The notes beneath the pieces are model-generated. The model saw nothing but the letters and a program-made list of their open reading frames with translations. It ran no database searches and was not told the origin of the DNA. Both the position numbers and the translations under genes were made by a program. Positions 5,358-62,880 of a stretch of 64,000 nt of DNA are shown here, one piece after another. The number at the start of each line of letters is the position of its first letter. Position 1 is the stretch's first letter. The DNA is from Malacoraja senta (Eukaryota). The stretch is taken from positions 5,022,001-5,086,000 of the forward strand of contig CM075991.1 in NCBI GenBank assembly GCA_038087875.1, in the 5' to 3' direction.

Positions 5358-6092
5358 GACTTCATTCATATTTCACAACTTGCTTTGATTACTTTGACTT
5401 TCTTTAAGCGACTTGTTCGTTCTTGCTTCTTTGTAGATCCCCAACATCTTGATCAAAAACAGAGTTTAAACGTACAATCGTATAGATACCCATTTGAAAT
5501 TTTCGTGGCCGATCTCTCCCTCGCTGCAATCAAACGTGTATATTTCCTCTCCACATTTACTCTTCAGAAGGACGTGTAAACTAATGAGTTGGGGGATGGG
5601 AGCACTAAAGGCGGATAAATCGCCGTTCCTGACCAGGATCCTAGGATGTTATGAGGAGCAAGGGATGAGATTGCTGTGGTCATGGCAGATATTTTGTACA
5701 TCTTTGTTATTCATGGGTATGGTACTGTTAGACTGGGGATAGTTACTGCTACACTTCTGTTTAAGGCGGGCAGGAGAGATAAGCCAGTGGACTGCAGTCC
5801 GGTGAGTATGAGATCAGTGGTAAGAAAGCTATTGGAAGGAGTTCTGAGAGATAGGAATTATTTGCATTTAAAAATGAAATGATTGATTAGCGACAGTCAG
5901 CATTACTCTGAACGTGGTGAGTCGTGTCTCACAAATTTGATTGAGTTTTTGAAGAGATTACCTAGTGGATTGAAGACCACGCGGCAGTAGACATTGTTTG
6001 CAGGGAGTTTACCAATGCCTTGACAAAGACCTGCATGATGTGGGAGATCCCAATTGAGCTATCCAGAGACACAACATTAGCTTAGTGGTAGC

Positions 6093-6232
6093 TTCTTCTT
6101 CTCGCATATGCCGGGCACGGCCTAAAGTTGTAGGACAACTTGTTCTATTTGATCTTATTTGATTGTGCATGCCGGGTTGATTGCATTCGTCAAAACAGGG
6201 CGGACCACGTGAAGGTTGCAATCTTCCACCCC
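6093..6232 (-). mobile_element. Short non-autonomous retroposon with 5' HDV-like ribozyme and (GAA)n tail, copy 1
   Basis: Flanked by 11-bp TSD ttagtggtagc (6082-6092 / 6233-6243). Homologous to 24164-24291 and 58413-58544. Confidence 0.9.
6179..6232 (-). ncRNA. Predicted minimal HDV-like self-cleaving ribozyme (core intact)
   Basis: GGGGUGG(P1) AA GAUUGCA(P2) ACC(P3) UUCACGU(L3) GGU(P3') CCGCCCU(P1') G UUUUGA CGAA(J4/2) UGCAAUC(P2'). All helices pair, with a G1-U wobble and the catalytic C at 6189. Confidence 0.8.
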
Positions 6233-6243
6233 TTAGTGGTAGC

Positions 6244-15773: not shown

Positions 15774-18700
15774 GGACTTCCGGTGGCGCCATGATACACT
15801 GAACAGGCGCAGCATTTGGCTCCACTCCCGAAATCTGCGATATTTTGCGTAAAAAAAGGTTTGGAAGACGGGACCGATTTTAAATACTTAAACGTCATCA
15901 GAAATCGCCGCGAAAATAATGGTGGTTTAAGGTACTTTTAAATGAAAAAAGTGATTCCTGGCCAAAGCCCTCAAAGATCTGTTACAAAACATCTTTGGAA
16001 AAATCAGCAAACATCTGAAGAATTAACTTCTGAGTTAGCCTCTGAAATGGCTACAAGGGCAAAGGCTGAAATGGCTACAAAGGATAAAGAGCTGGAAGAA
16101 ATAAAGAAGTCGGTAAGAGATGAGATTGCTGCTGGAAACAAAAGTATGATGGAGAGCATGAACCTTGGGAATCAGAAAATTATTGACAATTGGTAATTTA
16201 AATAAACGAATTGATGACGTGGAAGGTGAATTAACTGTGAAAATTGATCGGGTGGAAGAAGATTGCACGGACAAGTTTGACTCTGTTCTCCAAACTGCTA
16301 CATCATATCAGACTGCTATGAAAGATATGGAAGCATCTATGTTACAAATGTCTGAAGATATGCAGAGAATGAAGAAAGATCAGGAGTGTGTCGTGGGGCA
16401 GTTGGCTAAAATGTCTGATATATGCCTTGATTTGGAAGCACGTTCAAGATGGCAGAATTTAAGAATAGTTGGAGTGACAGAGGGAAAGAAGGGGAGTGAT
16501 CCTCGTGAGTTTGCTGCCAACTTACTTAAACAAATACTCAACCTGCCCGTCGAACCAAAAATAGAAGTGGCACATCGGGTGCGAAGAGCACAATCAAGAG
16601 CATAATCAAAGCCAGGAGCCCCCCCACGACAGATCATAGTGAAATTTCGTGACATTTCAGCTTTGGAAGATGTTATGAAAAATAACCAATACGGAAAGAA
16701 TATGATGTTTGGGAAAGATACCAGTAAACTATTCAGAGATTATCCTTATGAAATCGCCAAAAAACGAGAATTGTTTTCAAAGACACGACAGATCCTGAAA
16801 GGAAATCAAATTGTCAGATATGGTGTAATGTATCCGGCTAAAATGAGGATTACCTATAATGGTACCGAACATGCGTTTACTGACCCAGATGCAGCATACA
16901 AACATGCTCAAGACATCGTAAAAGAGATAGCTGGCTAAGTAAATCATCACGACTGCCAGGACAAGGCTTTTTATTCCACAGATATCGGCAGAGGGGAAGC
17001 TGAGAAAGATGACTTTTTAAAAGACTAAGATGGCGGAGCTCCTCCACATGCTGGTGTCTAGACATCTTATCTTCTTTGGAATGTGAACTCAAGGACATTC
17101 TTTGTTCCACCTCAAATGAAATACGGAACAACAAGGGTGCGGCTGAATGGAGAACTTAATACAAACGGACTTGAAAATAAACTTTTTGAATTAAAGTCTT
17201 TTAAAATTTTAACTCTATACTAACACAGAAACTACTGAATTAACATAGTAATAGCAATTGAATCTAATGCGAACTGTTAAAAGGGTAGAATGTAATAATG
17301 TATTATAATGATTGACCCCCCCCCCTGGGGAGGGGAAGGGGGGGCAAAATATAAGGAAATAGATTAATAACAGACTAAAAAAACTAACTTATATAATATA
17401 CTAGGCTTCAGTTCCAGTTATGCTTGGGAGGAGGTGAAAAGATTCAGGCCCTTGGCAAACAGCCAGGAGTCTGACTCTGGTTAACCCCTTCCAACCAGCA
17501 GCTGATTATTACTGAATGTGAAGCAAATGTAAAAACTGTTAGCATAAGTAAATGGTAGATAATCTGAAGACTTAATTAGATAAGACTTAATTAGATATAT
17601 ATATATATTGTAATTGTGATATATATAATTCGGTTTTGAATTGGCCCCACCTTCCTTTTGCAAGATTTTTCAAGGGAGTGGAGCTAAATGTATATTAACA
17701 ACAACGGAAGTCAACAGACTTGTAACTACCACCATTAGGTGGATAATTTGTTACAGTGTCGTTATTTTTAGACACTGTAATATCACTTTTTAAATTATTT
17801 TTTTTGTGACAATATTTCACACATTTTTTTTGTCTTTTTGTTTAAGGACAATTTTAAAAGGGATATACCAACAGAATTTAATAGCTGCAAATGCTCCCCC
17901 AACACCCAGAGACCTGAGGTATTGGTTGCACCATATGACTCAAATGTATTAAAATAATTTAAAATGCAAGACGATAAACAAAAGAAACTTGGAGGAATCA
18001 CATTTTGCAGTTGGAACATAAGGGGTGCTAACGAACCTATTAAAAGGGGTAAGATTCTCGCACAATTGAAATCGCTCAATTCAGACATAATTTTCTTACA
18101 AGAAACACATCTGAAATTGCAAGCTCAGACTAGATTGAAGGCAAATTGGATAGGTCAAACATATCAATCTTCATATATCTCTAAATCTAGAGGTACGGCA
18201 ATTATTATTCATAAAGGTATACCATTTAAATCAAAGAATATCATAATAGATAAGGAAGGGAGATATCTCATAGTTACCGGAGAGATTCATGCTACTCCAA
18301 TTACCATGGTAAATATTTATGCGCCTAATTTTGATAATCCCCAATTTTTTAATAAAATCCTGAATATAATTTCAGAGTTTAATTATCAAAACGTGATAAT
18401 TGGCGGAGACTTTAAATGCGTTTTAGATCCGTACCTGGATAAATCTGCACAACAAAAGAGGGGTAACACAAAATCTAAAACTAGTGAACTCCTAAATACA
18501 TACATAAAAAATACAAATACAACAGATGTTTGGAGGATCGCTAACCCAGCTGGAAGGGAATACTTGTTTTATTCAACGGTACACAAAACGTATTCACGTA
18601 TTGACTACTTTTTAGTGGACACAAAATTAATTCCCTACACAATGAACCCAAAATATCACAACAGCATTATTTCTGATCGCTCCCCGTTAACTTTTTTATT

Positions 18701-19613
18701 TAAACTTGAAGGAATGCCTAATAAAAAAATTGGAGGTTTAATCCTCAAATTCTAAATGATCCACAAGGTGGTATATATTTAAAACAACAGATGGAACTTT
18801 TTTTCGAGACCAATGACACCCCAGATATTTCACCCGCTTTACTATGGGAATCTTTTAAAGCATTTATCAGATGATCTATAATTTTATATCAAGCTTTTCA
18901 AAATAAAAAGAATAAGAATGAACAAAGGCAGTTAGAAGAACAAATTAGACAATTGGATCTAGATAACGCTAAAGAGCCAACTATAGATAAACATAATAAA
19001 ATAACAATATTGAAATTTAAATTAAATTAAATATTATCAGCAAAAGTTATAAGATTATTTCAAATTACAAAACGGGAAAATTTTGAATTCGTTGATAAAC
19101 CACATAAACTTTTGGCACGTCAACTGAAAAAATGGGGAAAAATATCATACGATTTTAAAGATTAAAACAGATAAAGGTGAATTGTTAACACTACCTAATG
19201 ATATTAATAAAAGATTTGCTCAATTTTATCAAAATTTATATACATCTAAAACATCAGCAGATAGTACTAAAGTTATAGAGTTCTTGGATAACTGTAATCT
19301 CCCAAAACTTAACCTGATCGAACAAGAGGAATTAGGAGCACAAATCTCAATTAAGGAAATAGAAGAAACAATAAACACACTAAAGAATGGAAAAACACCG
19401 GGGCCAGATGGATTTAGTAATGAATTTTATAAAAGATTTTATGAGATAATTTCACCACATTTACATAAAATGTATACATATGCTTTCAAAGAACAAACGT
19501 TACCAGAAACATTAGCTGAATCAACGATTACACTTATACCTAAAAACGATAAAGATTTAGAAGACCCTGGTTCATACAGAGCCATTGCGCTGTTAAATAC
19601 AGATCAAAAAATA
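15774..19613 (+). mobile_element. L1-clade LINE: 5'UTR, ORF1, inter-ORF, ORF2 endonuclease and start of RT; 3'-truncated and degenerate
   Basis: 5' end ggacttccggtggcgccatg. ORF1 pieces 15942-16938 (coiled coil, DLEARSRWQNLRIVGV, EVAHRV, YGVMYPAKMRI). ORF2 17964-18755 is an APE domain (SWNIRG, FLQETH, NIYAPN, GGDF, SRIDYF). 19182-19613 has KTPGPDGF..EFYK and SYRAIALLNTDQKI. Confidence 0.92.
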
Positions 19614-22600
19614 TGGTGGAATGGGACTGCCTCGTTAAAGTGTTGCAAAAATTTCAAATGGGAGATCATTTTATCTCATCGGTAAAACTATTATATGACA
19701 ATACTTGCTGACAGAGGTGATTATGATTGTAGTGCTCAATGCATTATTTGTTAGATACAGTTCATGACCATAAAATATCTTCAGCATCACACGAGTGAGG
19801 AAGCTCCAAGTATTCCATAATAACAGAGCCACACAGAGTATGTAACAACTGTCTGGTGAATCAAGTAATTCCCTATTATTATCGATTGTGTTTATCAAGC
19901 AACGGGTAGAGAAGTTTGAAAACGCATTCCTCCATATTCAGGAACACCTTTTTCCTAGCAGTTATCAGGCAATTGAAGGGTCCTCTCATCACCTAATCTC
20001 TGATATCTCATCTACCTCATTGGGAAACTTTGAACTATCTTTAAAGGACCACAATGTTAGCTCCTTGCACAAAATTCTGTAATCTTTATCCTTTATCTGT
20101 GCACAGTGGACGGCTTGATTGTAAACAGGTATGATCATTTCTTTGCCTGGTTATCTTGCAAACAAAAGTTAATCTTTCTACCTTGGTCCATGTGACAATA
20201 ACATACTAAACTAATTAGAAAATGGCGATGTGTTCTCTCCTGTTTATCATATACTGTGTACTAATGGTTTGTGAAACTTACTGTGAAAACAGTAAGTTTG
20301 TAGTTGATACTAAAACTGGTGCTATAGTGGACAGTGAAGTAGATGGTCTGAGATTACAACAGGATATCGATGAACTGGGAAAGTGGTAAAGAAATGGCAG
20401 ATGGAATAGAATGCACACATGTGATGCATTTTGAGACAGTAGCAGCCAGAGGGAAATGCCAGGGTTCTCATCAGGCGCTGTGAGAACATTTCTCTGACTA
20501 GAAAGATATGCTGGAAACTGGAGAGCAAAGAAACACGTTTAATAATGTCACACAATGGACACCTGGTCACTATGGACACTGTCAATATCGAACATGGCCA
20601 ACATCTTTACCATCATGTATAGGTTCCTAATGTGAGCTATGTACAGGGCAGAACAAGCAAATGGATTTGTAGAAAGGAAGAACTGCAGATGCTGCTTTAT
20701 GCTAAAGAGAGACACAAAGTTCTGGAGTAACTCAGCGGGTCTGGCAGCATCTATGCAGAAAAGGAATAGGTGATCTTTCAGGTCGAGACCCTTCTTCAGA
20801 GTGGTTTTGAAGGTATTAGCTATGAGATGATAGCTTGGGTTGTGTTCTCTAGAGTATCAGAGACTGAGGGGACCTGAGAGAAGTATATAGAATTAAGAGA
20901 GACAGAGATATCGTAGACAGTCATAACCTTTTTCCCAGGGTGGAGTCGTCTATTGCACAGACCAACCTCTCCACCATTGACTCCATCTATATTTTGCACT
21001 GCCTGGTGAAAGCAGTAATCAAAAAATTGTCCTATCTCGGTCATTCCTTATTCTCCCTGCTTCCATTCTTCTCCTCTGTTATCAGACTTCTGAATGATTA
21101 TTCCTTAAGCTAGGGCACTGCCTGATTCACCTCCATCCCATTTTTGGATATTGTACTGTGTCTATGGAACTGGTGCACTACCATATTGAAAACTGTATTC
21201 TGCGCTCCGTATCTTCCCCTTTGCACTAACCATTGTATTTGAGTTTGAATTGATTGTTTTTTTGTACAATATTATTTGATCAGATTAGATAGCATGAACC
21301 CTCTTTTGCTTAAATCCACACTCTGCCACCTCCAGTTTAAATTCCATTTGGAATATTTTGGAGGACCAAGAACCAAGAACCAAGAACCAAAACAAACCTT
21401 TTTAATGTACCTCAGCATAAGTGACAATAAGAAACCTAAATCTAAACTGGGAGGCACAGTTTTAAGGTGAGAGGGGCGAAATTTAAACGAGAGGCGCAGG
21501 GTAATTTTTTTACATTGAGTGGTGGGTGCCTGGAAGGTGCTGCTAGAAGTGGCAAATGAGATAGTGGCATTTAAGAGGCTTTTAAATTGGCATATGAATA
21601 TACAGAGCATAGAGAGATATGGATCACATGTAGGCAGAGGAGATAGTTGGTATCATGTTTGGCACATATATTGTGGATCAAAAGACCTGTTCCTGTGCTG
21701 TACTGTTCTATGATCTATGTACTGCTGGCTCAGGTGGTGTCAGTGCCGTCTTCACTCTCTTGGCTGGTGTTCTCTTTGGCCTCTCCTGGCTCTTGAAGGC
21801 TTCACTGACTGCTGGTAAGGTTGTCCACTGCTCACCAGCATGCAGAGTTATTGATGCTCACCAGGGGGAGCTATTGCAGGCCACCAGCCAAAGGTAAAAC
21901 GTCCCAGTTTGCTGATTTGGGGGATTAGTTATATTGTTGACAGGGACTGCTAGGGGCTTTTCTCCGCTTGACACGATTGGATGACAAGGTGGAAGGGACG
22001 TTTCTCTTCCCTTCAAAGGATAATAAGTTTGGGCAAGTCTCTAAAGGCAATCATCCACAGCAGAAAACCAAGGCCCTATTCAACCTGTGTCACCATCTGT
22101 TCCCTTTCCCTGTGTTGAATATTTCTTCACTGATATGTGGCCTGCAAATGGTCAATGACAGCAAATCTTCTGTAGTACGACAAACCTGTGAGCTTAAACT
22201 GAATGGCGAAACAAAGAACTGCACACCTTCTACCAGTCGTCACTCACTCCCCATTTTTGCAGTCTGTATTTTTCTCTCTCCCCGTGAGTCTGTTCCTTTA
22301 TCTACCCTTCCCTTCTATTCTTTCTGCCCTCTCTCTCCTGTCCCTTTCTGTCTCCCCAACCACTTTCTGTTCTCTGATTTTGTCTCCCTCCCTTCTCCGT
22401 CTATCTTTCTATTCCTCCTTCACAGCCTGTCTCTCTTTTTAAGAGGCATGTAAACAGACACATGAACAAGTAGAATGGAGTTATACGGACCATGTGCAGG
22501 CAGATATGCAGTTTAATCTGACATCATGCTCAGCCAGACACTGTGGGCTGAAGGGCCTGTACCTAGGCTGCACCATGTTCTCAGCCTATACATCACTCTC

Positions 22601-22889
22601 TTCCTCCATTTGTCTGCCCATCTCTCTCCCTTATCGTCCACCTACTTGCCTCTTGCTCCCTCTCACCTCTCCTCTGCCATCTTTTGTCTGTCCATCTTTC
22701 TTTTGTCTGTCCATCTTTTCTATTCTGGCACCACCTATCTTTTTGTCTCACTTCCCTGCTTGTCTGCCTCTCTCGCCTTGCTCTTCCTTCTTCATCTGCC
22801 AGTCTGTGGTACCCCGCTCCCTGCATATCTTTTAGACTGTGTAACTCTCCCCTGATTTTCTGCTTTTCTCTCTTTCACGTATTTATTTA

Positions 22890-23311
<422 letters not shown>

Positions 23312-23786
23312 TACATTGAGACCCAACATTTTCCAGCATGGAGTAAAATTTGAGAGGAAAATGCACTCTGAGCTTACCCTATTATTGTATCTTTACAAAA
23401 TACCTACCTGTATGATACCTGGTATTATGATGCTTGTATCATTTCCACTGCCTGGTGATCACCCATTCCTACATTAACTATCTTAAGCTACAGGGTGACC
23501 ACCTCCAACAGACATAATTCCCAGCCTTGCAGACCTTCGAACTATCTTTATTGTCACATGTGACAAGTCACAGTGACATTCTTTACTTGCATATCCAAGG
23601 TATGCAAAGGTCGCCACATAAGGGCACTGATGAAATAACAAAGTATACACAGTATCCTCTAAAGGTCCCCGTCTGTTTCACCACCTCCCCCCCCCCTCAC
23701 GGCAGGCCACCCCCCCCCCCCCCACCCCGATGTTGGTCCCTCCTCCCTCAGCAGCCCCAGCGAGGCCCACCAGGAGCCTTTCCACC

Positions 23787-24056: not shown

Positions 24057-24163
24057 AGGAGTCTTTCCACCAGGAGTCTTTTCACTAACTGGATAACATG
24101 CAACATCAAAGCTTTTCACTGTACCTCGTTACACGTGACAATAGTAAACTAAATCTAAATGGT

Positions 24164-24291
24164 CTTCTTCTTGCGTATGGCGTGCACAGCCTAAAGTTGT
24201 AGGACAACTTGTTCTATTTGATCGTGCACACCGGGTTGATTGCATTCGTCGAAACAGGGCGGACCACGTGAATGTTGCAATCTCCCACCCC
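24164..24291 (-). mobile_element. HDV-like-ribozyme retroposon, copy 2 (ribozyme 24238-24291)
   Basis: 12-bp TSD aatctaaatggt (24152-24163 / 24292-24303). Same 5' start GGGGUGG; one P3 mismatch (ACA/GGU). Confidence 0.9.
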
Positions 24292-27059
24292 AATCTAAAT
24301 GGTGAAAAAGGCCAACGTCAATTTGCCCAAACTGGACGCGCCTCCCGCAGATGTAGTCGCCCAGACTCTAAGGAGCGTCTAGGAATGCTCACATGCTGCA
24401 AGGCTTGCAACGACACTGCTCCGAGCTCACCCACCATAGTTTTAATTTAGAAAGGGCCTCTTCAATGTTATCCAATCTGTTCCCACACTTTACATGAGCA
24501 TTAGTGAAAATATTCACCACCATCCCGGCTGGAAACGATGCCACCGTCCAACCAAAGGCCGGTCTTGATAAGCTTCCTCAGACCCCATCATCAAAGTCCC
24601 TCCATTCACCGAAGCCCACAGTCTAGGACTGCTGCTCTCCAAGAACCACAGTACAAAACCACACTGCGGTTTCTTGTCTCCTTTCAACCCACTTGAACAG
24701 CTAGTCTAGTCAGCAGAACTTGACTGACTTCAGTTGAAAAAGTCACTGTTACACCGTTCCCACTATCTTCCCCTTATACACCTGCTCAAACTGCAAACTT
24801 TAGCTATAAAACTAGCCCTCAAAAGATTAGTAACTTTGACTACCTACTTTGGAGAAACTTACTGAAAGAATATACACTCAATCTCACTCGCTCAACCAAA
24901 GCTGAATCATTTCAGCTACTCCAATGTTATGCTTCGCATAAATGGTAGTAGTCCACAGTTTATTAATCAATCAATCAATCAGTTTTATTCATCACATACA
25001 CAATATTTGCTGCAAGTTACTCCCACATGTTGCCACTGAGCTTCAAGGATGGTGTCACGCTCTTCTTTAGAAGCCTTAGAATAAGAATAACTCAACGGTC
25101 GGCGGCATCTCTGGAGAACGTGAATAGGTGGCGTTCCAGATCGGGACTCTTCTTCAGACTGATTGTAGTGGGGGGGGGGGTCGGGGGGCAAAGCTGGAAC
25201 AGAGATGGAGGCAGGAAAAAGCCTGGTAAGTGGATACAGGTGAGGAGGGGTTGAGGGCAGATAGTTGGATAAAGGCCAGAGGTGACAAGACAAAAAGCAT
25301 GAGATAAGGAGAGAGGGAGTGTGAAATGTAAAGCCAATTACAGTATGTCCCGCAGTTGAATCTTCCAAATAACTTCAAGTATTCATTTTCTTTACAAATT
25401 CACCCTTCAAATCCATTAACTTACTTTTCCTACTTGAGATGAAAGATTTGACATTTTAACTTACATTTTTTCACCAAGGATGCTGCCTTACCTGCTGAAT
25501 ATTTTCAACACTTTCTGTTTTTATTGCAGATTTCCAGCATGTGCAAGAGTTACATTCCTGGCAACTACAGTTCTTGATTATAATTCCTCTCAACCACCTC
25601 TCTCCATCGAATCAGTCACTTCCTTTGAACTGTTGGATCAGACCTTGCTTAGACTCCTGTACTTGCATTAACAGCCCAGTCTAGGCAATTTGTCTTCATA
25701 AATTAATCCTGTCATTTCCCTTATTATTCTGGTGAATTGGTACGACACTCTTTCCAAGATCTGTCATGGGGTTTTTTCGGACGTGTTTAAACTGGAAGTG
25801 AGCGTGGTTCCCTTAAACACCATTACCAACACTACCTCTGTAAGCTTTGCAAGAAACAACTTTAAATATTGTAAGAACATCCTCCATTTATCTTCTGGAA
25901 GTAATTAAGCTGCTTCTGGTCATACTCCTGCTCCTGCCTTACATGGGCACAATCCAATAGCTGATGTGCAGTGCCTAATTGGACCATGAATCTGTTTCCT
26001 TTAGCATTCATGTGAGGTTTGCACAGAAGGATGTATTTCCCAATTCATGCACTGCTGTGTGACATGGAGCAAGCAGAGTAATATTGGAGGTATTTTACCA
26101 TGAGTTATCAAGTAGCAATACACATATTTTCAGTTGAAATGTGATCTGAAAGGGAAAAAAAGGTCAACAATTATTTTAATTCAATACATATGAGGTGCAT
26201 TAATTAGATATTGAGAAATGAGGAAGTATGATGAAGTCCTGAAACAATTAGCACTGGCTTTCCAAATTTCGCTGTGCTTCAACTGTTCAGTAATCACATT
26301 TGTACTTGGCAATCTGTAACTTAAATAATAAAGGAGGGAATTCTTTTTTCAGCATTCAAAATATTTGCCAAGGCTACTGGCAAATATTTTGTCATGTGTA
26401 GTCAGTAGTGAAAGACCAAGAAGAGAAGAGGTATATTTGTAATGAAACAGTTAAACATAGTGATATAGTTGAAGGGATTATCTAAAACCAATGTTTGCCT
26501 ATGCCTGTCACATTCTTGGGTCTTTGTCTTTGAGTTGAACAACCATTTTGTTTACTGACCTACATTGGCATCTTGTTGTGTAATATAGTAACTTTTAAAT
26601 TCTTACCATGTGTCTGAATCTGTCCATGTACACTTGTCTCAAAATCTCCTCAAGCCTATACCAAACCAAGATCACAAGAGTCCTTCTTTCTTGGCCTCTT
26701 GACCATCCCTGAATTGAATTACATCGCCGTTAGTGGCCATGTCTTCAGCTGATGCTCACAGAGGGTGGTGATTCTCTGGAATCCTCTGGCCCGCAGAGCT
26801 GTGTGAGTTGGATCATTCGAGCAATTTAAAGAGAGTGTAGGTAATGTTTTGAAAGATTGTGGAAATCTGGACCACAGGTAGCTGGAAATAGAGATAGAAA
26901 CAAGCCTAGCCCATATCAGCCATGATAATATTAAAGAGCAACGCAATACTCAGGGATCAGGTGTTCTTCTCCTTCTCCTAATTTCCAAAGTTCTTGTATC
27001 AAAGACCCAAGTTCTGGAATTCACATAGTATTTAATGTTATTTACCATGCTACAAAGAT

Positions 27060-33491: not shown

Positions 33492-34721
33492 TCAGAGCAC
33501 CGATTCCAAAGTGCATCGGGCATCCCCGTTGACTTGGTGAGATGTCGCCTTTTCACTCCGGGTGCTGGACCGGCTGCTGTGGGAGTTCTCCGGGGGCTCC
33601 TGGACTTCAGCAGGCGTCCGGGTGGAGTTCGGCCACCCGAAGGGACACGGGCAGTAAGGGCTGGCGCCTCGGAGCTCAGGCTCCTCGGCTGTCCTGCCGA
33701 GACACAGGATCTCCTTGAAGGCTCTTCTGAAGTCAGAGCTCCGACAGTAGATGAAAGGGTTAAAGCCAGAGTTCACGTATCCTAGCCAGTTACAGAAGAG
33801 AAAGAGTGTCCTCGGAATCCGGTTCCTGAATACCACTTGCACTATGTTGAAAAGAAAGAATGGCAACCAGCAGAGAGTAAATGTCCCCATGATGATACCC
33901 AAGGTCTTCAGAGCTTTGTGGTCTTTCAGGGCCAGCAGCTTAGAAGGTCTCCTTTTGTTGCACTTGTTTTGTGGATGGCCGTCTCCTATCCTCGGTTTGT
34001 TCCTCTCCATCTTCTTCATCTGCTTCTTGGCCTCGCTGAAGACCTTGGAGTACAGGAGGATCATGATCACCAGCGGGATGTAGAAGGATATGGTGGAGGA
34101 CAGGATGGCGTAAGGCCAATTGGTCACGAAGTCGCAGCAGGTGGGTTCCCTGTAGCACTGCTGGGCAAGTGGATCCGAATCCTCCCACCAACGGTTCATG
34201 ATGGGCAGGAAGGAGATCAGGGCGGAGATGGCCCAGACCAGGCACACAATCGCCCTGGCCCTGGCTTTGGTCAACAGGCTCATGTACCTCAAGGGAGAGG
34301 TAATGGCGATGTACCTGTCGATGGCAATAACGCAGAGAGTCTCAATGCTGGCCGTCACGCACAGCACGTCCACAGAGGTCCAAAACTCGCAGAAAGGAGA
34401 GTCCAAGAGCCACTTGTTGGTCACCACGATAGTGGCGCCCAGTGGCACCACGAACACGCCCATGATCAGGTCGGCACACGCCAGCGAGGTGATAAAGACG
34501 TTGGTGAGGGTCTGGAGCCGCGGGTTCTTGGCGATGGCCAGGATCACGAGTAGGTTGCCCAGCACGATGATCAGGATGATCACGGTGAAGACCACGGCCA
34601 GAACACATTGCTTGGACCATGACAACTCTCCACTTGACAGGGGGTTGGCCTGCGCCGTGTCATTCACACCTCGCAACCCTTCCATGCTGAGGTTGCAAAC
34701 TGCCCCCGGAATCCCGCACAT
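33492..34721 (-). CDS. adrb3: Beta-adrenergic receptor, most like beta-3 (beta-4C-like); single exon, 409 aa (397 aa from ATG 34685)
   Basis: Intact 7[60 protein letters not shown] (amine-binding Asp), [17 protein letters not shown] (catechol Ser), [39 protein letters not shown]. Subtype assignment (beta-3 vs beta-1) is less certain than the family call. Confidence 0.88.
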
Positions 34722-34900: not shown

Positions 34901-35030
34901 GGAGCAGGGAAGTGCTTTTCTAATCTCCTTTAACGCTTTCGGGGTCGTATTTCAACGGGTTAGCGGTATTATTTACGTCTAATGTAAATTGTAACATAAA
35001 TTATCAGGAAGCGTTGGATCTGTGTTTGCA

Positions 35031-35032
35031 GG

Positions 35033-35087
<55 letters not shown>

Positions 35088-35144
35088 CGAGAGTGTGTGT
35101 GTGAGTGTGCGTGCGTGTGTTTGTGTGTGAGAGTGAGAGAGAGA

Positions 35145-35189
<45 letters not shown>

Positions 35190-35283
35190 CGTGCGTGTGT
35201 TTGTCTGTGTGTGTGTGAGAGAGAGAGAGTGAGAGTGAGAGAGAGAGTGTGTGTGAGAGAGAGAGAGTGTGCGTGCGTGTGTT

Positions 35284-35371
<88 letters not shown>
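35031..35371. repeat. Compound (GT)n/(GA)n microsatellite upstream of adrb3; shorter (CT)n at 34794-34827
   Basis: Directly visible. Confidence 0.97.
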
Positions 35372-35374
<3 letters not shown>

Positions 35375-36829
35375 TTATCGGTGCATTTATGTGTACACAA
35401 GTCTACATATGTGTACACATTAGAAGCCCTTTATCGATACGCCACTGGGTCTTTCGCCCTCTCACACCATCTCAACACATCACGACTTTTGAACTCTGCC
35501 GCTTTAATGCAGGGAACGGGACTTGATCTGTGAGTAGCAAACTCCATCAAATAGTAATCTGTAAATCTCCCATTCCTTCTCTCCAGAGATGCCGCCTGTT
35601 CCGCTGAGTTACTCCGGCGTTTTGTGTCCATCCTACACAATCTATCCAGGTGGTGTGTTTTTTTTAACAGTTGGCCAAATTAGTGCTATTCACTGAAACA
35701 AACGCCACTTTCAGCAGAGCAGCACTCCGACGGTACTATATGGGACTGGAAAGAAAGCTCGATTCCCACAATTTTCTAACTCGGAGGAGTATTACCTACC
35801 CAGGCCTTTGCCTGTTTCTGCGTGTGCGTGATGCCCGCCTATTTATCAGTACATTTCGTACAAATCCCGTTTACCGAGCTTCTGCCTGTTTGCTCGTATT
35901 TTCCATAATTTTGTCGCTCGGCTGAGACTTCAACAATCGCGGAGAGCTACCAATATAACCTTTAGATTTCCAGCCCATCCCACCGATTTTACACCGTGTT
36001 CAGACATGCTCGTTCTCCTGATAATATTCCAACGTAAAATGCAATTGAAGAGCGGACAGAAAGAATGCCAGAGTTCCAATTTGGATTTTTTTTTTTGTGG
36101 CCAATGCAAATTTCACGCGAGAGTGGCTGGAGGACGCACGAGTTATGTATTGTAATATTATTTAACGGACCCAGTCACAACAGAGACTATTTTAAAAGTC
36201 ACCGTCATCAAAAATTTAGCTCAACAAATATTGTTGAGCTAGATTTAAAGTTAACCCTTGACTCAACAATTCGTTGTGATATTCAAGGATGCAGAGTAAA
36301 TGTTCTTACGAACCACCCCTACATCCTATCAATTAGTGTATACTAGTATGAATCGCCGACACGTGAAAAACAAATTTCCCGTTCATATAGGTCAGGAGTA
36401 ACGTGGGGACGATTTGACAATTAAAATGGAGCGAAAGAGAATTTATTTTGACCCAAAAAGTACTGAGATCAGAAACTCCCTATCAAGCGGTTACAGCTCT
36501 CATCAAAACAAAATGGCTTGCTGCAGTATAATGAACAAATCTTTAGTAACTCAGCGGGTCAGGTAGAATCTCTGGATGGAAGGAATCGATGACGTTTCCG
36601 GTCGAGACCCTTCTTCAGATTTTATCTTCGGTGTAAACCAGCATCTGCAATTCCTTCCCACACAAGAAAAAATCTTTAGGTTGGGTTCTAGGAATTTCAT
36701 AAGAGCCATGGATATTTAGTTAGAGGGATTTTTTCCCCATGGCAGGTGATTGATAATATAGATTTTGTAAAAAGAAGTGGGAGATTTAAAGGGTATCTGA
36801 GTAAGTTAGATAGTTTCGTTCAGAGGCAC

Positions 36830-48204: not shown

Positions 48205-49820
48205 CATAGAAACATAGAAACATAGAAAGTAGGTGCGAGAGTAGACCACCAGGCCCATCGAGCCCGCACCGCCATTCGCTCATGGCTGAACACTAAACAG
48301 ACACCCTTACCCACAAACAGTAGACACAAGACACAGAACACAAGACACTACCCTCCCCTTTATATCGCTATCACCCCTCTCCACCCCAAGAACCGCGTGA
48401 TCTCCTGGGGGAGGCAAAAAACCGGATAAAAACCCAGGTCCAATTCGGGAAAAAAATCCGGGAAATTCCTCTCCGACCCCAATCCAGGCGATCGACACTT
48501 GTCCAGGAGATCACTCAGGTCTTACTATACTAACCATACCTAGGTCCATATCCCTGCCCTCTCCCCGTAGCCCCTTATCCCCTTGGCAGCTAAAAAACCA
48601 TCTATTTTAGATTTAAATATATTTAATGTTTCTGCTTCCACTGCTCCCTGGGGCAGTGAATTCCATAAATTAACCACCCTCTGGGTGAAGAAGTTCTTCC
48701 TCATCTCAGTTTTAAAAGAGCCCCCTCTTATTCTACAACTATGTCCCCTAGTTCTAGTTTCCCCGATCATTGGGAACATCCTCGGTGCATCCACCCGATC
48801 AAGGCCCCTCACGATCTTATATGTTTCAATGAGATCGCCTCTCATTCTTCTAAACTCCAAAGAGTAGAGTTCCAGCCTACTTAACCTTTCCTCATATGTC
48901 AATCCCCTCATTGCAGGAATTAATCTTGTAAACCTTCGCTGCACTGCCTCCAGGGCCAGTACATCCTTTCTTAAGTATGGACCCCAGAACTGTACACAGT
49001 ATTCCAAATGTGGTCTCACTAATACTGTGTACAGCTGCAGCAAGACCTCCGTGTTTTTATACTCAATGCCCCTAGCAATAAAGGCCAAAACTCCATTGGC
49101 CTTCCTGATTGCTTGCTGCACCTGCATACTAACTTTTAGTGATTCATGTACTACTACCCCTAGATCCCTTTGCGTTGCATTACAACGCAGCTCCACCTCA
49201 TTTAGAAAATAACTTGCCCTATCATTTTTTTTCCCAAAGTGAATGACTTCACATTTATTAGTATTAAATTTCATCTGCCAAGTTGTTGCCCACTCACCTA
49301 GCTTATCTATATCCTTTTGCAGACTCTTCCTATCCTCCTCATCCCCTACTTTTCCTCCCATTTTTGTATCGTCCGCAAATTTTGATATATTACACTTGGT
49401 TCCCTCCTCCAAATCATTTATATAAATTGTGAACAACTGGGGTCCCAGCACCGACCCTTGCGGAACCCCGCTAGTTACCGGTTGCCATCCCGAGTATGAA
49501 CCATTTATCCCCACTCTCTGTTTCCTATTTGTTAGCCAATCCTCTACCCATACTAATATATTACCCCCAATCCCATAATTTTTTATTTTTAGCAATAGTC
49601 TCTTATGTGGCACCTTGTCAAAAGCCTTTTGGAAGTCCAAGTATACCACATCCACCGGTTCCCCTTTATCCACCCGGGTTGTTACTTCCTCAAAGAATTC
49701 GAGCAGATTCGTTAAACAGGACTTCCCCTTCACAAAACCATGCTGGTTCTGTCCGATGAAGTCATGTTTATCCAAGTGCCCCGTTAGTGTTTCTTTAATA
49801 ATTGTCTCTAACAAATTTTT
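48205..49820 (-). mobile_element. Young 5'-truncated CR1 LINE with uninterrupted RT ORF (48540-49814) and (TTTCTATG)n tail
   Basis: 424-aa open frame: QHGFVKGKSCLTNL, YLDFQKAFDKV, SGVPQGSVLGP, KFADDTK, VRPHLEYCVQFW. Confidence 0.95.
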
Positions 49821-51644
49821 GTATCGTCCACAATTCAGTAAGTAAAGATTTCACAAATCGTTTTAAGTGTTGCACCATTCATCTTAAAGTTATCTCCTCC
49901 AGTTCTGGACATTCCTGCCATTATAGCAGTTATAATTAACCTATCAAACTGGAAGCATTCAGCAGTGTAGAGAAGGGTTCCTATCCGAAACGTCATGCGT
50001 TCCTTCTCTCCAGAGATGCTGCCTGGCCATCTGAGTTACGCCAGTGTTTTGTGTCTATCTGCGGTATAAACCAGCATCTGTGTAAGAAGGAACTGCAGAT
50101 GCTGGTTTAAACCAAAGATAGGCATAAAAAGCTGGAGTAACTCAGCGGGAAAGACAGCATCTCTGGAGAGAAGGAATGGGTGACGCTTCGGGTCGAGACC
50201 CTTCTTCAGTATAAACCAGCATCCACCGTTCCTTCCTGCACAAACATGAAGCATTTACAGGTATAAGTGTGATTAGCGAAAACAACAAGTTAAAGCAAAT
50301 TGAGGGGATACAAAGAACTGCAGATGCTGGCACACAGAAAAAAAGACAACGTTCTGGAGTGACTCAACAGGTAAGCCGGAACATGGATAGGCATTATCTA
50401 TGTAGAAACAAGTAAATGCCAATGCTGGTTTACACTAAAGGACACAAAGTGCTGGAGTAACTCCGCGGGTCAGGCAGCATCTCTGGAGAACATGGATAGA
50501 ACATGGATCAGTCCGATGAAGGATCCCAACCTCAAATGTCAGCTATCTGTGTTCTCCAAAGATACTGCTCTACCAGCTGAGTTACTCCTGCACTTTGTAT
50601 CCGTTTAGGCATTATCCATGTTCTCCAGAGATGCTGCCTGACCTATTGCGTAATTGCAGGTGGACAAAAAGCTGGAGAAACTCGGCGGGTGAGGCAGCAT
50701 CTATGGAGCGAAGGAATGGGTGAAGTTTCAGGTAGAGACCCTTCTTCAGCATAAACCAGCATCCACCATTCTTTCCTGCACAAACAGGAAGCATTTACAG
50801 TTATAAGTGTAATCAGTCTGAAGCAGGGCCTCGACGCGAAACGTCACCGATTCCTTCGCTCCATAGATGCTGCCTCACCCGCTGAGTTTCTCCAGCTTTT
50901 TGTCTACCTTCGATAATTCCAGCATCTGCAGTTCTTTCTTAAATATTGCGTTATTGCAATACTTTGTTTCTTTTAAAAACCTAATTCAGGACAGGGTTGT
51001 AAGCACAGTGCTTAGCACATACCTATTAAGCAGATGTGGTTGCTGGAGTTCACTTTGCTATTCATTGCCAGACCTTGCCAAAACATCAGAACTTCCTGAA
51101 ACCAGCGGATCGTGCATTTTGTCAGCCTTTTTCACATCATCTCAAGATGTCCTTCGCAGCCAGTGAGGTCTTTCTGAACGGTAGACATTTTTAAAATGCA
51201 GGTATTTCCATGTAAACATTATCCAAAAACTCTGCTACTTTCTTCACCTTTACCAACACTAATCTTCTTCAAACAGCAACCATGTATTTGCTAACCAACA
51301 GTAATTTGTGGTTAGGTAATGACTGGATTTTGGCATTCTGAATCTACTTTTCAAATGCCTGCATTGATTCCATCTGTTTCTGTAATCTCCTTCATCTTTC
51401 TAACCCAATAGGTTTTTTATTTATTTTGCAGCAATTGTGGCCTCTTGCTCATCTCTATATTAAGAAGTGTCTCCACCCGAAACAACACCCAATCCTTCTC
51501 TCCAGCAATGCTGCCTGTCCCGCTGAGTTTCTCCAGCTTTTTGTGTCTATCTTCACTCTACCATTGCAAGCTTCACTTTCACAAGCCAAGGTCCAGGTTC
51601 TTGAAGTTTCACACTCTAAATCCCCACCAAGCCTCTTCTCTCTT

Positions 51645-58412: not shown

Positions 58413-58544
58413 TGCGGTGGGAGATTGCAACCTTCACGTGGTCTGCCCTGTTTCGATGAATGCAATCAACCCGGCAAGCACAATCAAATAGAACAATTTG
58501 TCCTACAACTTTAGGCTGTGCACGCCATACGCAAGAAGAAGAAG
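58413..58544 (+). mobile_element. HDV-like-ribozyme retroposon, copy 3 (ribozyme 58414-58467, catalytic C mutated)
   Basis: 11-bp TSD acaggcttgga (58402-58412 / 58545-58555); (gaa)n tail; J4/2 is UGAA instead of CGAA. Confidence 0.9.
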
Positions 58545-59151
58545 ACAGGCTTGGAGAGCAGGCTCCAGGGCCCAGCAGGTTGAAATGCCTGTTATTAAAC
58601 CGCATAATTCTTCAACTCTATAATAAATCATTCAGTAAAGGAAATGAGAGGTTGGGCCTTACACAGCTCAACAGCTGCAAGGTGCTCTGCCGACCTGCCT
58701 CAACTACACCACGTTGCCTTCTTACAATGACAAAAACCTGGAAAATATGGGCCAATTACCTTATGTCCAGAAATACAGACGGTTCTTTCATAAGCTAGGG
58801 TGCGGTCCCCATCTGCCAACAAAGACCTGATTGCAGACCTTTGTTGCACTTCCTCTCTAACTGTAATGCCATAATGCTGTAACACTATATACTGCACTCA
58901 GTTTTTTCTCTCCTTGCACTTCCTGTTATATTCCTGTGTATGGCTTGATACATGTATAGTATGATTTGACTGGATTGAATGCAAACAATTAATTTTCACT
59001 GCATCTCGGTACATATGCCAATTACCCCAATAATAAACTGTATATCTGCCTGCACATATTCCATACCCTTTAGTTCCCTGGAAAGGAAATTGTGCAGGAC
59101 ATATGGTCATAAGAGTAATATGAGGCTCAATTCCTTTAACATATTCTGTCA

Positions 59152-62100: not shown

Positions 62101-62880
62101 GTTGGACCCCAAAGTGTTTGCAGACATCATAGCACGATATGGAACACCAGATATCGATCTATTTGCATCTAGGCTTAACCACCAGTTGCCGACATATGTT
62201 GCGTGGGAACCAGACCCTGGGGCAGCAGCGATGGACGCATTTTCGCTGCACTGGGGAAATTTGTTTTTCTATGCATTTCCCCCCTTCTGCCTCATCAGTC
62301 GGGTCTTACGCAGAATACAACAAGACTCTGCGTCAGGTATTTTGGTAGTACCGGACTGGCCTACCCAGCCATGGTTCCCTGTGGTTCTCGACATGGTTTC
62401 ACAACCATGTATGGCCGTCGCCAAATGACCAGACTTGATGGTCCATCCTGTAACTGTCGAAAGTCATCCATGCCATGACAGGACTAATCTGTTAATTTGC
62501 AGAATTTGAACAGGTCACTTCTGGGTCTTGGACTGACGGACCGAATCATCAACATGATCACGGCGGCGCAAAGAGAGTCTACCAGGAAACAGTACCTGAC
62601 TTACATCAGGAAATGGGAACTATATTGTTCCAGAACTAATATTGAGTATAACTCAGCCACCGTAACAAATGTCCTGGAGTTCCTCGCTAACCTTCATTTC
62701 GATGAAGGGCTTAGCTACAGTGCCATCAACAGCGCTAGGAGTGCCCTATCGACCTATTTGTGGCGGGAATTCGACCACCATTCTTCTGGGATCTCACCCC
62801 TTGGTTTCCAAATTAATGAGGGGTATATTCAACTCGAATCCCCCTAGGGCAAGATACTCTCACATTTGGGATGTGAGTAT
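59152..62880 (+). mobile_element. DIRS1-like tyrosine-recombinase retrotransposon (gag, RT/RNase H, methyltransferase-like domain, YR N-terminus), degenerate
   Basis: gag ~59349-60557 (RKNSIRPAL, LLFGGNL). RT ~60554-61500 (GGRL..F..AW, HFKME, IDLKDAY, LPNGLTSAPRLFTK, *LDD). RNase H TDSS..GWGA, INYLE, DNTTVVAYINHMGG. IDLFASRLN...FYAFPPF. YR start RESTRKQY...GLSYSAINSARSALS...HPLVSKLMRG. Confidence 0.92.

What the first reader, a model, noticed from the sequence alone, without database searches (positions are those of the whole stretch)
6093..6232. A ~135-nt retroposon headed by a minimal HDV-like ribozyme
Seen: three dispersed copies (6093-6232 minus, 24164-24291 minus, 58413-58544 plus), each with a different 11-12 bp TSD and a (GAA)n tail, all starting at G(G/C)GGUGG (copy 3 has one extra U). 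The first 54 nt match the HDV-like nested double pseudoknot: P1 GGGGUGG/CCGCCCU with the G-U wobble at position 1, P2 GAUUGCA/UGCAAUC, P3 ACC/GGU, L3 UUCACGU, a G available for a 1-bp P1.1, P4 reduced to U-UUCG-A (UUUUGA in this copy), and J4/2 CGAA with the catalytic C. The predicted cleavage site coincides with the element's 5' boundary. I see no tRNA, 5S or 7SL head and no Pol III boxes. Established: HDV-like ribozymes process the 5' ends of R2, RTE and some other non-LTR elements, and ribozyme-bearing short internally deleted R2 derivatives exist in insects. Inference: this is a promoter-less non-autonomous element that cuts itself out of read-through transcripts and is copied by an RTE-type LINE. 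I do not recognise such a family from cartilaginous fishes, but cannot check novelty here.
Basis: partly seen in the sequence, partly recalled or inferred. Interest (0 to 1): 0.92.

Follow-up and report, generated by a model that had tools for sequence, protein, structure and literature searches.

The report
Ribozyme-headed mini-retroposon derived from a LINE
This is a roughly 130-base mobile element, present about 9,400 times in its animal genome, made of the front and tail of a longer jumping gene, and its first 54 bases fold like a stripped-down self-cutting RNA closely related to one known from a mammalian brain gene.

Summary
All three copies, their 11-12 bp target-site duplications and their (GAA)n tails are as described.

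The family has about 9,450 copies in the 1.94-Gb genome, and heads are as numerous as bodies.

I found the partner LINE. The element consists of the LINE's first ~80 nt plus its last ~44 nt. It is therefore an internally deleted LINE derivative, not a Pol III SINE.

No Rfam family reaches its gathering score on the 54-nt head, but the two best sub-threshold hits are HDV models.

Decisive support is comparative:
- Five other LINE families in this genome begin with HDV/CPEB3-type ribozymes whose P1, P2 and P3 sequences differ but stay complementary: 111 of 112 cells paired, 12 of 16 pairs compensatory.
- A model trained only on four of those families finds exactly the three heads in the window.

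Cleavage itself is untested, and the clade call "RTE" is unproven.

By-product: dispersed LINE-borne ribozymes here score up to 64 bits on Rfam's "mammalian" CPEB3 model.

Verdict: a new variant of a known kind.

The parts
6179..6232 (-). Copy 1, 54-nt minimal HDV-like ribozyme. P1 5' strand 6226-6232; J1/2 6224-6225; P2 5' strand 6217-6223; P3 5' strand 6214-6216; L3 6207-6213; P3 3' strand 6204-6206; P1 3' strand 6197-6203; G for P1.1 at 6196; 6-nt linker replacing P4 6190-6195; J4/2 CGAA 6186-6189 with the putative catalytic C at 6189; P2 3' strand 6179-6185.
   Evidence: Rfam HDV_ribozyme 19.9 bits and HDV-F-prausnitzii 14.6 bits, both sub-threshold. Leave-one-family-out model R1: 40.8 bits, E 1.1e-7, over 6196-6232.
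6139..6178 (-). Copy 1 body. It derives from the 5' UTR of the partner LINE (element positions 55 to about 80), plus a 10-nt internal duplication and a short linker of unclear origin.
   Evidence: Alignment of a typical copy to a LINE 5' end.
6093..6138 (-). Copy 1 tail. It matches the last ~44 nt of the partner LINE, which include the final ORF codons, the stop codon and the ~20-nt 3' UTR, followed by (GAA)n.
6233..6243 (-). Copy 1 upstream target-site duplication GCTACCACTAA. The next G, at 6232, is ambiguous between the duplication and the element.
6081..6092 (-). Copy 1 downstream target-site duplication.
24164..24291 (-). Copy 2, 128 nt, without the 10-nt duplication. Ribozyme 24238-24291; putative catalytic C at 24248. 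A at element position 19 (24273) breaks the third P3 pair. Target-site duplication ACCATTTAGATT at 24292-24303 and 24152-24163.
   Evidence: R1 31.8 bits, E 2e-5.
58413..58544 (+). Copy 3. One extra T at 58413; G1 at 58414; ribozyme 58414-58467. G2>C (58415) breaks one P1 pair, and the J4/2 C is mutated to T (58457), so this copy is decayed. Target-site duplication ACAGGCTTGGA at 58402-58412 and 58545-58555.
   Evidence: R1 26.7 bits, E 3.7e-4.

Best explanation
The element is a short internally deleted derivative of a LINE that encodes an AP endonuclease and a reverse transcriptase. It keeps only two modules.

1. The LINE's first ~80 nt. Its first 54 nt are a P4-less HDV-like ribozyme of the CPEB3 type.
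2. The LINE's last ~44 nt plus the (GAA)n tail. This is the part the LINE reverse transcriptase is expected to recognise.

Proposed mechanism:
- A copy lying inside another transcription unit is read through.
- The ribozyme cuts just 5' of G1 and releases an RNA that starts at the element's first base.
- The LINE enzyme primes on the (GAA)n tail at a nicked target and copies the RNA to its very end. This gives full-length inserts flanked by 10-13 bp duplications.

Shown by computation: the anatomy, the LINE parentage, the fold's conservation with compensatory changes, and the coincidence of the boundary with the predicted cleavage site.

Inferred: catalysis by this P4-less form, dependence on read-through transcription, and use of the LINE enzyme in trans.
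For: **Family size and intact 5' ends**
- The deletion-junction 32-mer matches 9,446 times and the first 31 nt match 9,450 times in the genome, both at <=3 mismatches, with reversed-pattern controls at 0.
- In 34 sampled copies, 30 begin GGGGTG.
- 28 of those 34 have an exact flanking repeat of >=7 bp. In 13 it ends exactly before G1, in 6 it overlaps G1/G2 by one or two G, and in 9 it stops 1-5 nt short. In six of those nine that I read (L002, L003, L013, L018, L019, L030), the cause was a mismatch inside or at the end of the repeat.

**LINE parentage**
- A pattern that excludes the short element upstream of the tail gives 338 matches. These belong to a longer, variably 5'-truncated element.
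- Its ORF ends ...STLDLQL, with the stop codon inside the shared tail.
- Pfam finds Exo_endo_phos_2 and RVT_1 above cut-off, and zf-RVT below it.
- A near-full-length copy (L063) and 2 of 13 inspected 5' regions (L066, L073) carry the same head.
- The head and tail of the short element align to the LINE's ends.

**Ribozyme identity**
- Among 4,227 Rfam families, the two best hits on copy 1 are HDV_ribozyme and HDV-F-prausnitzii. Both are full-length alignments with P1 and P3 in the drawn places.
- LINE families whose endonuclease N-terminus is 38-46% identical to the partner's have HDV or CPEB3 hits about 150-170 nt upstream of the ORF.
- 12 of 13 loci of two such families exceed the CPEB3_ribozyme gathering score, at 44-64 bits.
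- Seven representatives (the short element, the partner LINE and five other families) were parsed with fixed segment lengths. 111 of 112 cells pair, and 12 of 16 pairs show changes on both sides. None of 2,000 shuffles reaches that pairing. Swapping strands between families gives a mean of 9.6 of 16 paired.
- The counting tool on a gap-free MAFFT alignment (9 sequences, P1+P3) gives 97.8% paired against 75.6 +/- 3.2 in shuffles (0 of 500) and 37-62% when partners are slid. Six of 10 pairs have double-sided changes.
- A covariance model built from four other families only finds the three heads as the only hits with E<1 in 64 kb. Each match starts at the element's first base; the next best hit scores 12.6 bits.
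- The partner LINE differs from the short element by U5-A instead of U5.G in P1, so pairing is kept, and by CUAA instead of CGAA in J4/2.

**A P4-less form is plausible**
- A second P4-less family (L107-L112: G UUUCCA CCAA, with different P1, P2 and P3 that still pair) scores 36-44 bits on the CPEB3 model.
- Minimal HDV-like ribozymes lacking P4 are described in the literature (PMC10879173, passages).
Against: - No Rfam family reaches its gathering score anywhere in the window. The HDV hits on copy 1 have E 0.52 and 1.3.
- The nested part of the fold is no more stable than shuffled sequence: -12.6 kcal/mol, z 0.20.
- A topology-only descriptor has dozens of chance hits in the window.
- P4 is absent, and this form's catalysis has not been assayed.
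- The partner LINE copies seen are decayed (frameshifts and stops). Only 2 of 13 keep a whole head; 6 are cut at about position 6-13.
- A sharp 5' end would also follow from a fixed transcription start.
- My structural parse used segment lengths chosen with the fold in mind.
- Family 2 has one non-standard A.C pair in P1 and G1-C instead of G1.U.
- Four of 34 sampled copies have A19, which breaks a P3 pair.
Confidence: 0.75

Rival explanations
1. The head is a genuine descendant of a LINE 5' ribozyme, but the P4-less form no longer cleaves. In this reading the sharp 5' end comes from an internal promoter in the first ~80 nt, as in the dual promoter/ribozyme Pr77 of L1Tc. Alternatively it comes from reverse transcription simply running to the end of a defined transcript.
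For: - There is no cleavage assay.
- P4 is missing, and the Rfam scores are sub-threshold.
- The nested fold is not unusually stable.
- A dual promoter/ribozyme head is known for L1Tc and NARTc (PMC3383444, abstract).
Against: - About 9,450 copies were made from this form.
- The only change in a helix between the LINE and the short element keeps pairing.
- A second P4-less family keeps all three helices through compensatory changes.
- P4-less HDV-like ribozymes are a described class (PMC10879173, passages).
- In four other LINE families, the boundary also falls on G1 in the copies that keep a whole head.
Confidence: 0.17
2. The element is an ordinary Pol III SINE with a degenerate small-RNA head, and the drawn helices are a chance resemblance.
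For: - A loose base-pair descriptor finds many chance folds.
- Earlier notes of this scan on other genomes record similar ribozyme claims that failed.
Against: - ARAGORN finds no tRNA in the window.
- No tRNA, 5S or 7SL family appears among Rfam hits up to E 10 on copy 1.
- The head is colinear with a LINE 5' end.
- Covariation and the leave-one-out model both support the fold.
Confidence: 0.03
3. The short element is not mobilised as such. In this reading the copies are independent internal deletions or 5'/3' recombinants of LINE insertions.
For: None beyond the LINE parentage itself.
Against: The same deletion junction occurs 9,446 times. Each sampled copy has different flanks and its own target-site duplication.
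Confidence: 0.01

Closest known systems
R2 SIDEs: short internally deleted R2 and R2/R1 elements of Drosophila (PMC3414825, abstract seen)
   Same: A non-autonomous element made by internal deletion of a non-LTR element. It keeps the 5' HDV-like ribozyme and the 3' end needed for target-primed reverse transcription.
   Different: R2 elements insert site-specifically in 28S rDNA using a restriction-like endonuclease and are co-transcribed with rRNA. Here insertion is dispersed with 10-13 bp duplications, the partner has an AP endonuclease, the ribozyme lacks P4, and there are about 9,400 copies.
NARTc / L1Tc and the Pr77 hallmark of trypanosomatids (PMC3383444 and PMC3185411, abstracts seen)
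   Same: A dispersed LINE and its truncated non-autonomous partner share a 5' HDV-like ribozyme in their first nucleotides.
   Different: Pr77 is also an internal promoter, and the host makes polycistronic transcripts. The ribozyme there spans 77 nt. Promoter activity was not tested here.
HDV-like ribozymes of RTE and baggins LINEs (review PMC6765202, passages seen; primary paper Ruminski et al. 2011 not held)
   Same: Promoter-less LINEs that rely on read-through transcription and 5' self-cleavage. The review also states that some non-autonomous SINEs use hammerhead or HDV-like ribozymes.
   Different: The examples I recall are from invertebrates. Membership of this LINE in the RTE clade is not established here.
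Minimal (P4-less) HDV-like ribozymes and theta ribozymes (PMC10879173, passages seen)
   Same: A nested double pseudoknot with the P4 domain missing.
   Different: Those were found in metagenomes and gut phages next to tRNAs, and their origin is said to be undetermined. This one heads an animal retroposon and its parent LINE.
Mammalian CPEB3 ribozyme, Rfam RF00622 (PMC4836649 and PMC8233481, passages seen)
   Same: The L3 is identical (UUCACGU), GU follows P1, and J4/2 is the 4-nt CGAA. The described CPEB3 P1.1 (one G-C plus one U-U) can form here. Sister LINE families in this genome pass the family's gathering score.
   Different: CPEB3 is a single intronic copy with a P4 hairpin. The element's P1, P2 and P3 sequences differ and P4 is absent. 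The element itself gave no RF00622 hit at E<=10.
Hammerhead-bearing Sm-alpha SINE-like elements and twister-variant non-LTR elements of Schistosoma (PMC6765202 passages; PMC8501958 abstract)
   Same: Self-cleaving RNA used to process retroposon transcripts.
   Different: These use other ribozyme classes. Sm-alpha is said to be Pol III-transcribed.

Membership tests
HDV-like self-cleaving ribozymes | Nested double pseudoknot in the order P1-P2-P3-L3-P3'-P1'-(P4)-J4/2-P2', with the helices kept by covariation | tested here: met
   16 of 16 pairs in typical copies. 111 of 112 cells paired across 7 representatives, with 12 of 16 pairs compensatory. Counting tool: 97.8% paired against 75.6% in shuffles, 0 of 500.
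HDV-like self-cleaving ribozymes | 7-bp P1 starting at the cleavage site with a G1.U wobble | tested here: met
   GGGGUGG/CCGCCCU with G1.U. The element boundary lies at G1. That this feature defines the family is from recall.
HDV-like self-cleaving ribozymes | Catalytic C at the start of a short J4/2 | tested here: met
   CGAA in copies 1 and 2 and CUAA in the LINE. Copy 3 has UGAA. Only the presence of the base is shown, not its role.
HDV-like self-cleaving ribozymes | P4 hairpin | tested here: not met
   A 6-nt linker replaces P4. P4 is absent from the described minimal subclass (PMC10879173), so this does not exclude membership.
HDV-like self-cleaving ribozymes | Score at or above the gathering threshold of an Rfam HDV-class model | tested here: not met
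   0 matches at gathering score in the window. RF00094 scores 19.9 of 50 bits and RF02682 14.6 of 44 bits.
HDV-like self-cleaving ribozymes | Site-specific self-cleavage giving a 5'-OH at G1 | not testable with these tools
   Only assembled contigs of public runs were available, and these cannot show RNA ends.
Local group of LINE 5' ribozymes (CPEB3 type) | Recognised by a model trained on the other families only | tested here: met
   R1 was built from 5 sequences of 4 families. The three heads score 40.8, 31.8 and 26.7 bits; the next best hit scores 12.6 bits.
CPEB3 ribozyme (RF00622) | Gathering score of 35 bits | tested here: not met
   No RF00622 hit at E<=10 on copy 1. Sister families meet it: 12 of 13 loci and 39 genome matches over the cut-off.
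Internally deleted LINE derivative (SIDE-like) | The 5' and 3' ends are colinear with the ends of one autonomous element, and there is one shared deletion junction | tested here: met
   The junction occurs 9,446 times.
RTE-clade LINE (partner) | No room for an ORF1; one ORF with AP endonuclease then RT | tested here: inconclusive
   The ORF starts about 110 nt from the 5' end. Pfam finds endonuclease and RT pieces in order. All copies seen are broken.
RTE-clade LINE (partner) | Very short 3' UTR ending in a simple repeat | tested here: met
   The stop codon lies about 26 nt before (GAA)n. That this is an RTE hallmark is from recall.
RTE-clade LINE (partner) | RT groups with RTE in a phylogeny | not tested
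   No reference RT sequences were at hand. Names of the 120 listed homologues are uninformative.
Pol III SINE | Head derived from tRNA, 5S or 7SL | tested here: not met
   ARAGORN finds 0 genes in the window. No such family appears among Rfam hits up to E 10.

The most novel reading that the evidence does not exclude
The 54-nt head would be the smallest natural HDV-like ribozyme serving an animal mobile element.

It would belong to a vertebrate LINE lineage whose 5' ribozymes are true homologues of the mammalian CPEB3 ribozyme. If so, the CPEB3 ribozyme would be a domesticated LINE 5' end. [quoted passage not shown]

Support:
- Dispersed copies score up to 64 bits on RF00622.
- One repeat family (L113, L115) also matches the model consensus in parts of P4 (L113 over its 5' strand), as well as in the core (one search read against the consensus printed).

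Open:
- The host's class. A beta-adrenergic-receptor gene in the window is about equally distant from the mammalian beta-1, -2 and -3 receptors, which suggests but does not prove a non-mammal.
- Whether the likeness is descent or convergence.
- Whether this is already in print outside the library I could search.
Probability: 0.4. Interest if true: 0.85.

Novelty: new variant of a known kind. Interest (0 to 1): 0.7.

Why it matters
- It shows how little a retroposon needs: a 54-nt self-cutting head and a 44-nt tail were enough for about 9,400 insertions.
- It places P4-less HDV-like ribozymes, so far described from metagenomes and phages, in an animal genome with a clear job.
- The surrounding set of LINE families gives natural covariation data for the fold.
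- Through the CPEB3-type members, it offers a concrete, testable origin for a ribozyme implicated in mammalian memory.

Tried and rejected
- **Topology-only descriptor.** Too permissive. It gave 19 (+) and 33 (-) starts in the window and found only copy 1, so I dropped it as a significance test.
- **RNA evidence.** All 24 listed runs are kept as assembled contigs. These cannot show RNA starts, ends or strand, and no RNA 5' end can be read from them. They show only that the element's sequence occurs in contigs of four coded organisms.
- **Odd result.** No variant at >=10% was listed in element positions 1-41 relative to copy 2. Yet copy 2 has A19 where 30 of 34 sampled genome copies have C. This is unexplained.
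- **MFE folding.** The nested fold has z 0.20, and the pseudoknot is not modelled.
- **MAFFT on whole ribozymes and with family 3 included.** These misaligned the 3' strands or put a gap inside P1. The tool count therefore covers P1+P3 only and leaves out family 3. P2 and family 3 were counted in my script.
- **Protein Atlas and homologue names.** Neither gave the LINE clade or the host taxon.
- **Earlier findings of this scan.** Nothing on this sequence or this genome.
- **Literature.** Searches 13, 35, 36, 56, 64 and 81 surfaced no description of this family or of LINE-borne CPEB3-type ribozymes. One search was uninformative, since none of its 15 listed papers holds 'HDV-like ribozyme'. The key primary papers (Ruminski 2011; Webb and Luptak 2009 and 2011; Riccitelli 2014) are not held. 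Dfam and Repbase could not be searched. Absence from print is therefore not established.

Full report
**1. The observation**

The three copies are at the stated places and strands.
- Two internal motifs each occur exactly three times in the 64-kb window. Shuffles expect 0.00 and 0.15.
- Each copy has its own 11-12 bp target-site duplication and a (GAA)n tail.
Copy 2 has A19, which breaks a P3 pair. Copy 3 has G2>C. Copy 3 has also lost the J4/2 C (UGAA).

**2. Is the fold more than chance?**

Taken alone, no.
- A descriptor that asks only for the helices and a C upstream of P2' finds 19 and 33 starts on the two strands of the window, and only one of the three copies.
- The nested part of the fold is no more stable than shuffles, z 0.20.
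- No Rfam family reaches its gathering score in the window.

With permissive thresholds on copy 1, the two best of 4,227 families are HDV_ribozyme (19.9 bits, E 0.52) and HDV-F-prausnitzii (14.6 bits, E 1.3). Both are end-to-end alignments that delete P4. That is a lead, not proof.

**3. The family**

The window lies in a 1.94-Gb assembly.
- The 32-mer across the element's internal junction matches 9,446 times and the first 31 nt match 9,450 times, both at <=3 mismatches, with reversed-pattern controls at 0. Heads are as common as bodies, so 5' truncation is rare.
- Of 34 sampled copies, 30 begin GGGGTG.
- 28 of the 34 have an exact flanking repeat of >=7 bp. It ends right before G1 in 13, overlaps the first G or two in 6, and stops 1-5 nt short in 9.
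- Most copies carry a 10-nt internal duplication that copy 2 lacks.
- G or A at position 8, in the unpaired J1/2, marks two abundant subfamilies.

**4. The partner**

I searched for the element's tail preceded by letters that the element does not have. This gave 338 matches of a longer repeat.
- It is a LINE. Copies are 5'-truncated to all lengths.
- The reading frame ends ...STLDLQL, with its stop inside CAACTTTAG. Only about 20 nt of 3' UTR precede (GAA)n.
- Pfam finds endonuclease and RT pieces, and a weak zf-RVT hit.
- A near-full-length copy (L063, about 2.8 kb, apparently with an internal deletion) starts with the element's positions 9-77. About 50 nt later comes an AP-endonuclease N-terminus.
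- Of 13 LINE 5' regions inspected, 2 keep the whole head (L066, L073), 6 are cut at about position 6-13, and 5 are cut deeper.
- The short element aligns to the LINE's first ~80 nt and last ~44 nt. It is therefore an internal-deletion derivative.
- No tRNA-like head exists.

**5. The comparative test**

The endonuclease N-terminus finds further LINE families at 38-46% identity, some with open frames of 886-986 aa. About 150-170 nt upstream of their ORFs, Rfam's best hits are again HDV-class models.
- In one search, all 3 matches are HDV-class.
- In one search, 6 of 10 matches are HDV-class. The other 4 are snoRNA models at E 1.7-9.4.
- Two families reach 44-64 bits on CPEB3_ribozyme (gathering score 35) in 12 of 13 loci.
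- In four of these families (2, 4a, 4b and 7) the copies have different upstream flanks and, where the head is whole, begin at the first G of P1.

Covariation, parsed with fixed segment lengths over seven representatives (the short element, the partner LINE and families 2, 3, 4a, 4b and 6):
- 111 of 112 cells of P1 (7 pairs), P2 (6) and P3 (3) form standard pairs.
- 12 of 16 pairs change on both sides.
- No shuffle of 2,000 reaches this pairing.
- Joining one family's 5' strands to another's 3' strands pairs a mean of 9.6 of 16.
- Caveat: I chose the registers knowing the fold.

Two checks that lean less on my registers:
- The counting tool, on a gap-free MAFFT alignment of 9 sequences (family 3 left out for register; P2 not coverable), gives 97.8% paired against 75.6 +/- 3.2 in shuffles (0 of 500), 37-62% when partners are slid, and 6 of 10 pairs with double changes.
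- A covariance model built from five sequences of four other families finds the three heads as the only hits with E<1 in the window: 40.8, 31.8 and 26.7 bits, against 12.6 for the next hit. Each match starts at the element's first base.

**6. The P4-less state**

- The partner LINE has the same 6-nt linker as the short element.
- A second family (L107-L112) has the same design, G UUUCCA CCAA, with different P1, P2 and P3 sequences that still pair (P1 as 6 bp). It passes the CPEB3 gathering score at 36-44 bits.
- P4-less HDV-like ribozymes are a described subclass (PMC10879173, passages).
- L3, the GU after P1 and the 4-nt J4/2 match what is described for CPEB3, namely a P1.1 of one G-C and one U-U (PMC4836649, passages).

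I therefore think the form is active, but this is inference.

**7. Mechanism**

See Best explanation.
- Shown: anatomy, parentage, conserved fold, and the boundary falling at the predicted cleavage site.
- Inferred: catalysis, read-through transcription and trans-mobilisation.
- A review states that RTE and baggins elements with such ribozymes lack promoters, and that some SINEs use hammerhead or HDV-like ribozymes (PMC6765202, passages). The kind is therefore known.
- The closest designs are R2 SIDEs and NARTc.

**8. Novelty**

The differences from known designs are:
- an animal genome of vertebrate type (host class not determined)
- dispersed AP-endonuclease-type insertion
- a minimal P4-less core
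- very small size combined with a high copy number

I found no description in the searches listed under Tried and rejected. The primary HDV-like ribozyme papers and the repeat databases were out of reach.

**9. By-product**

RF00622 finds 51 matches at E<=1e-3 in this genome, 39 of them over the cut-off, out of only 59 candidates scored. The 14 control genomes give none. [quoted passage not shown] The window's beta-adrenergic-receptor ORF is about equally similar to beta-1, -2 and -3 receptors in the PDB (422, 408 and 363 bits). This suggests a non-mammal but does not prove it.

Noticed in passing
L094-L106 (13 loci; for example G000:C21:8958070-8958225 and C1:217550455-217550605) and L087: Two LINE families start with ribozymes that score 44-64 bits on Rfam's 'mammalian' CPEB3_ribozyme model (gathering score 35) in 12 of 13 loci. 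P1 and P2 differ from the model consensus by compensatory changes. Genome-wide there are 39 matches over the cut-off. This is a possible retrotransposon origin for the CPEB3 ribozyme.
   Followed up: partly
L113 (G000:C10:9303850-9304020) and L115 (G000:C1:380486995-380487180): Copies of another repeat whose ribozyme resembles the CPEB3 model consensus in parts of P4 as well as in the core (L113 over its 5' strand). Both copies lack the first few nt of P1. Whether a LINE ORF follows was not checked.
   Followed up: no
L107-L112 (for example G000:C13:8596020-8596185): A second P4-less ribozyme family: GGGGUC..GGAAAGA GCG UUCACGU CGC GGCCCCU G UUUCCA CCAA UCUUUCC. The copies seen have only four leading G, so P1 pairs as 6 bp and the closing G.U is missing.
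   Followed up: partly
L063, L065, L069, L071, L072, L075 (partner LINE 5' ends): Six of 13 LINE copies are cut within about position 6-13 of the head, whereas the short element is almost never truncated. Reverse transcriptase stalling at the folded ribozyme is one possible cause.
   Followed up: no
L086:139-170, L102, L072, L092: Short direct duplications of the first 10-30 nt of the ribozyme at the 5' junction of some LINE copies. This looks like template jumping at the end of reverse transcription.
   Followed up: no
window 24108-24143: Another short repeat just downstream of copy 2. It is very abundant in the contigs of all four runs laid. It was not identified.
   Followed up: no
window 24273 (element position 19): Copy 2 has A where 30 of 34 sampled genome copies have C. 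Yet the laid contigs of other organisms list no variant at >=10% at this place. Unexplained.
   Followed up: no
window 33492-34721 (-): An intron-less 409-aa ORF for a beta-adrenergic-type receptor. It is about equally similar to beta-1, beta-2 and beta-3 receptors in the PDB.
   Followed up: partly
window 17958-19685 (+), 48540-49850 (-), 61448-62428 (+): Other mobile-element ORFs: an endonuclease/RT LINE fragment, a 436-aa RT fragment ending in a ...FFTQRVVNLWNSLP... motif, and a 326-aa ORF of unknown type. They share none of the element's motifs.
   Followed up: no
window 22567-23477 and 34969-35430: Long CT/GA-type simple repeats, seen as SLSLSL.../RERERE... reading frames.
   Followed up: no
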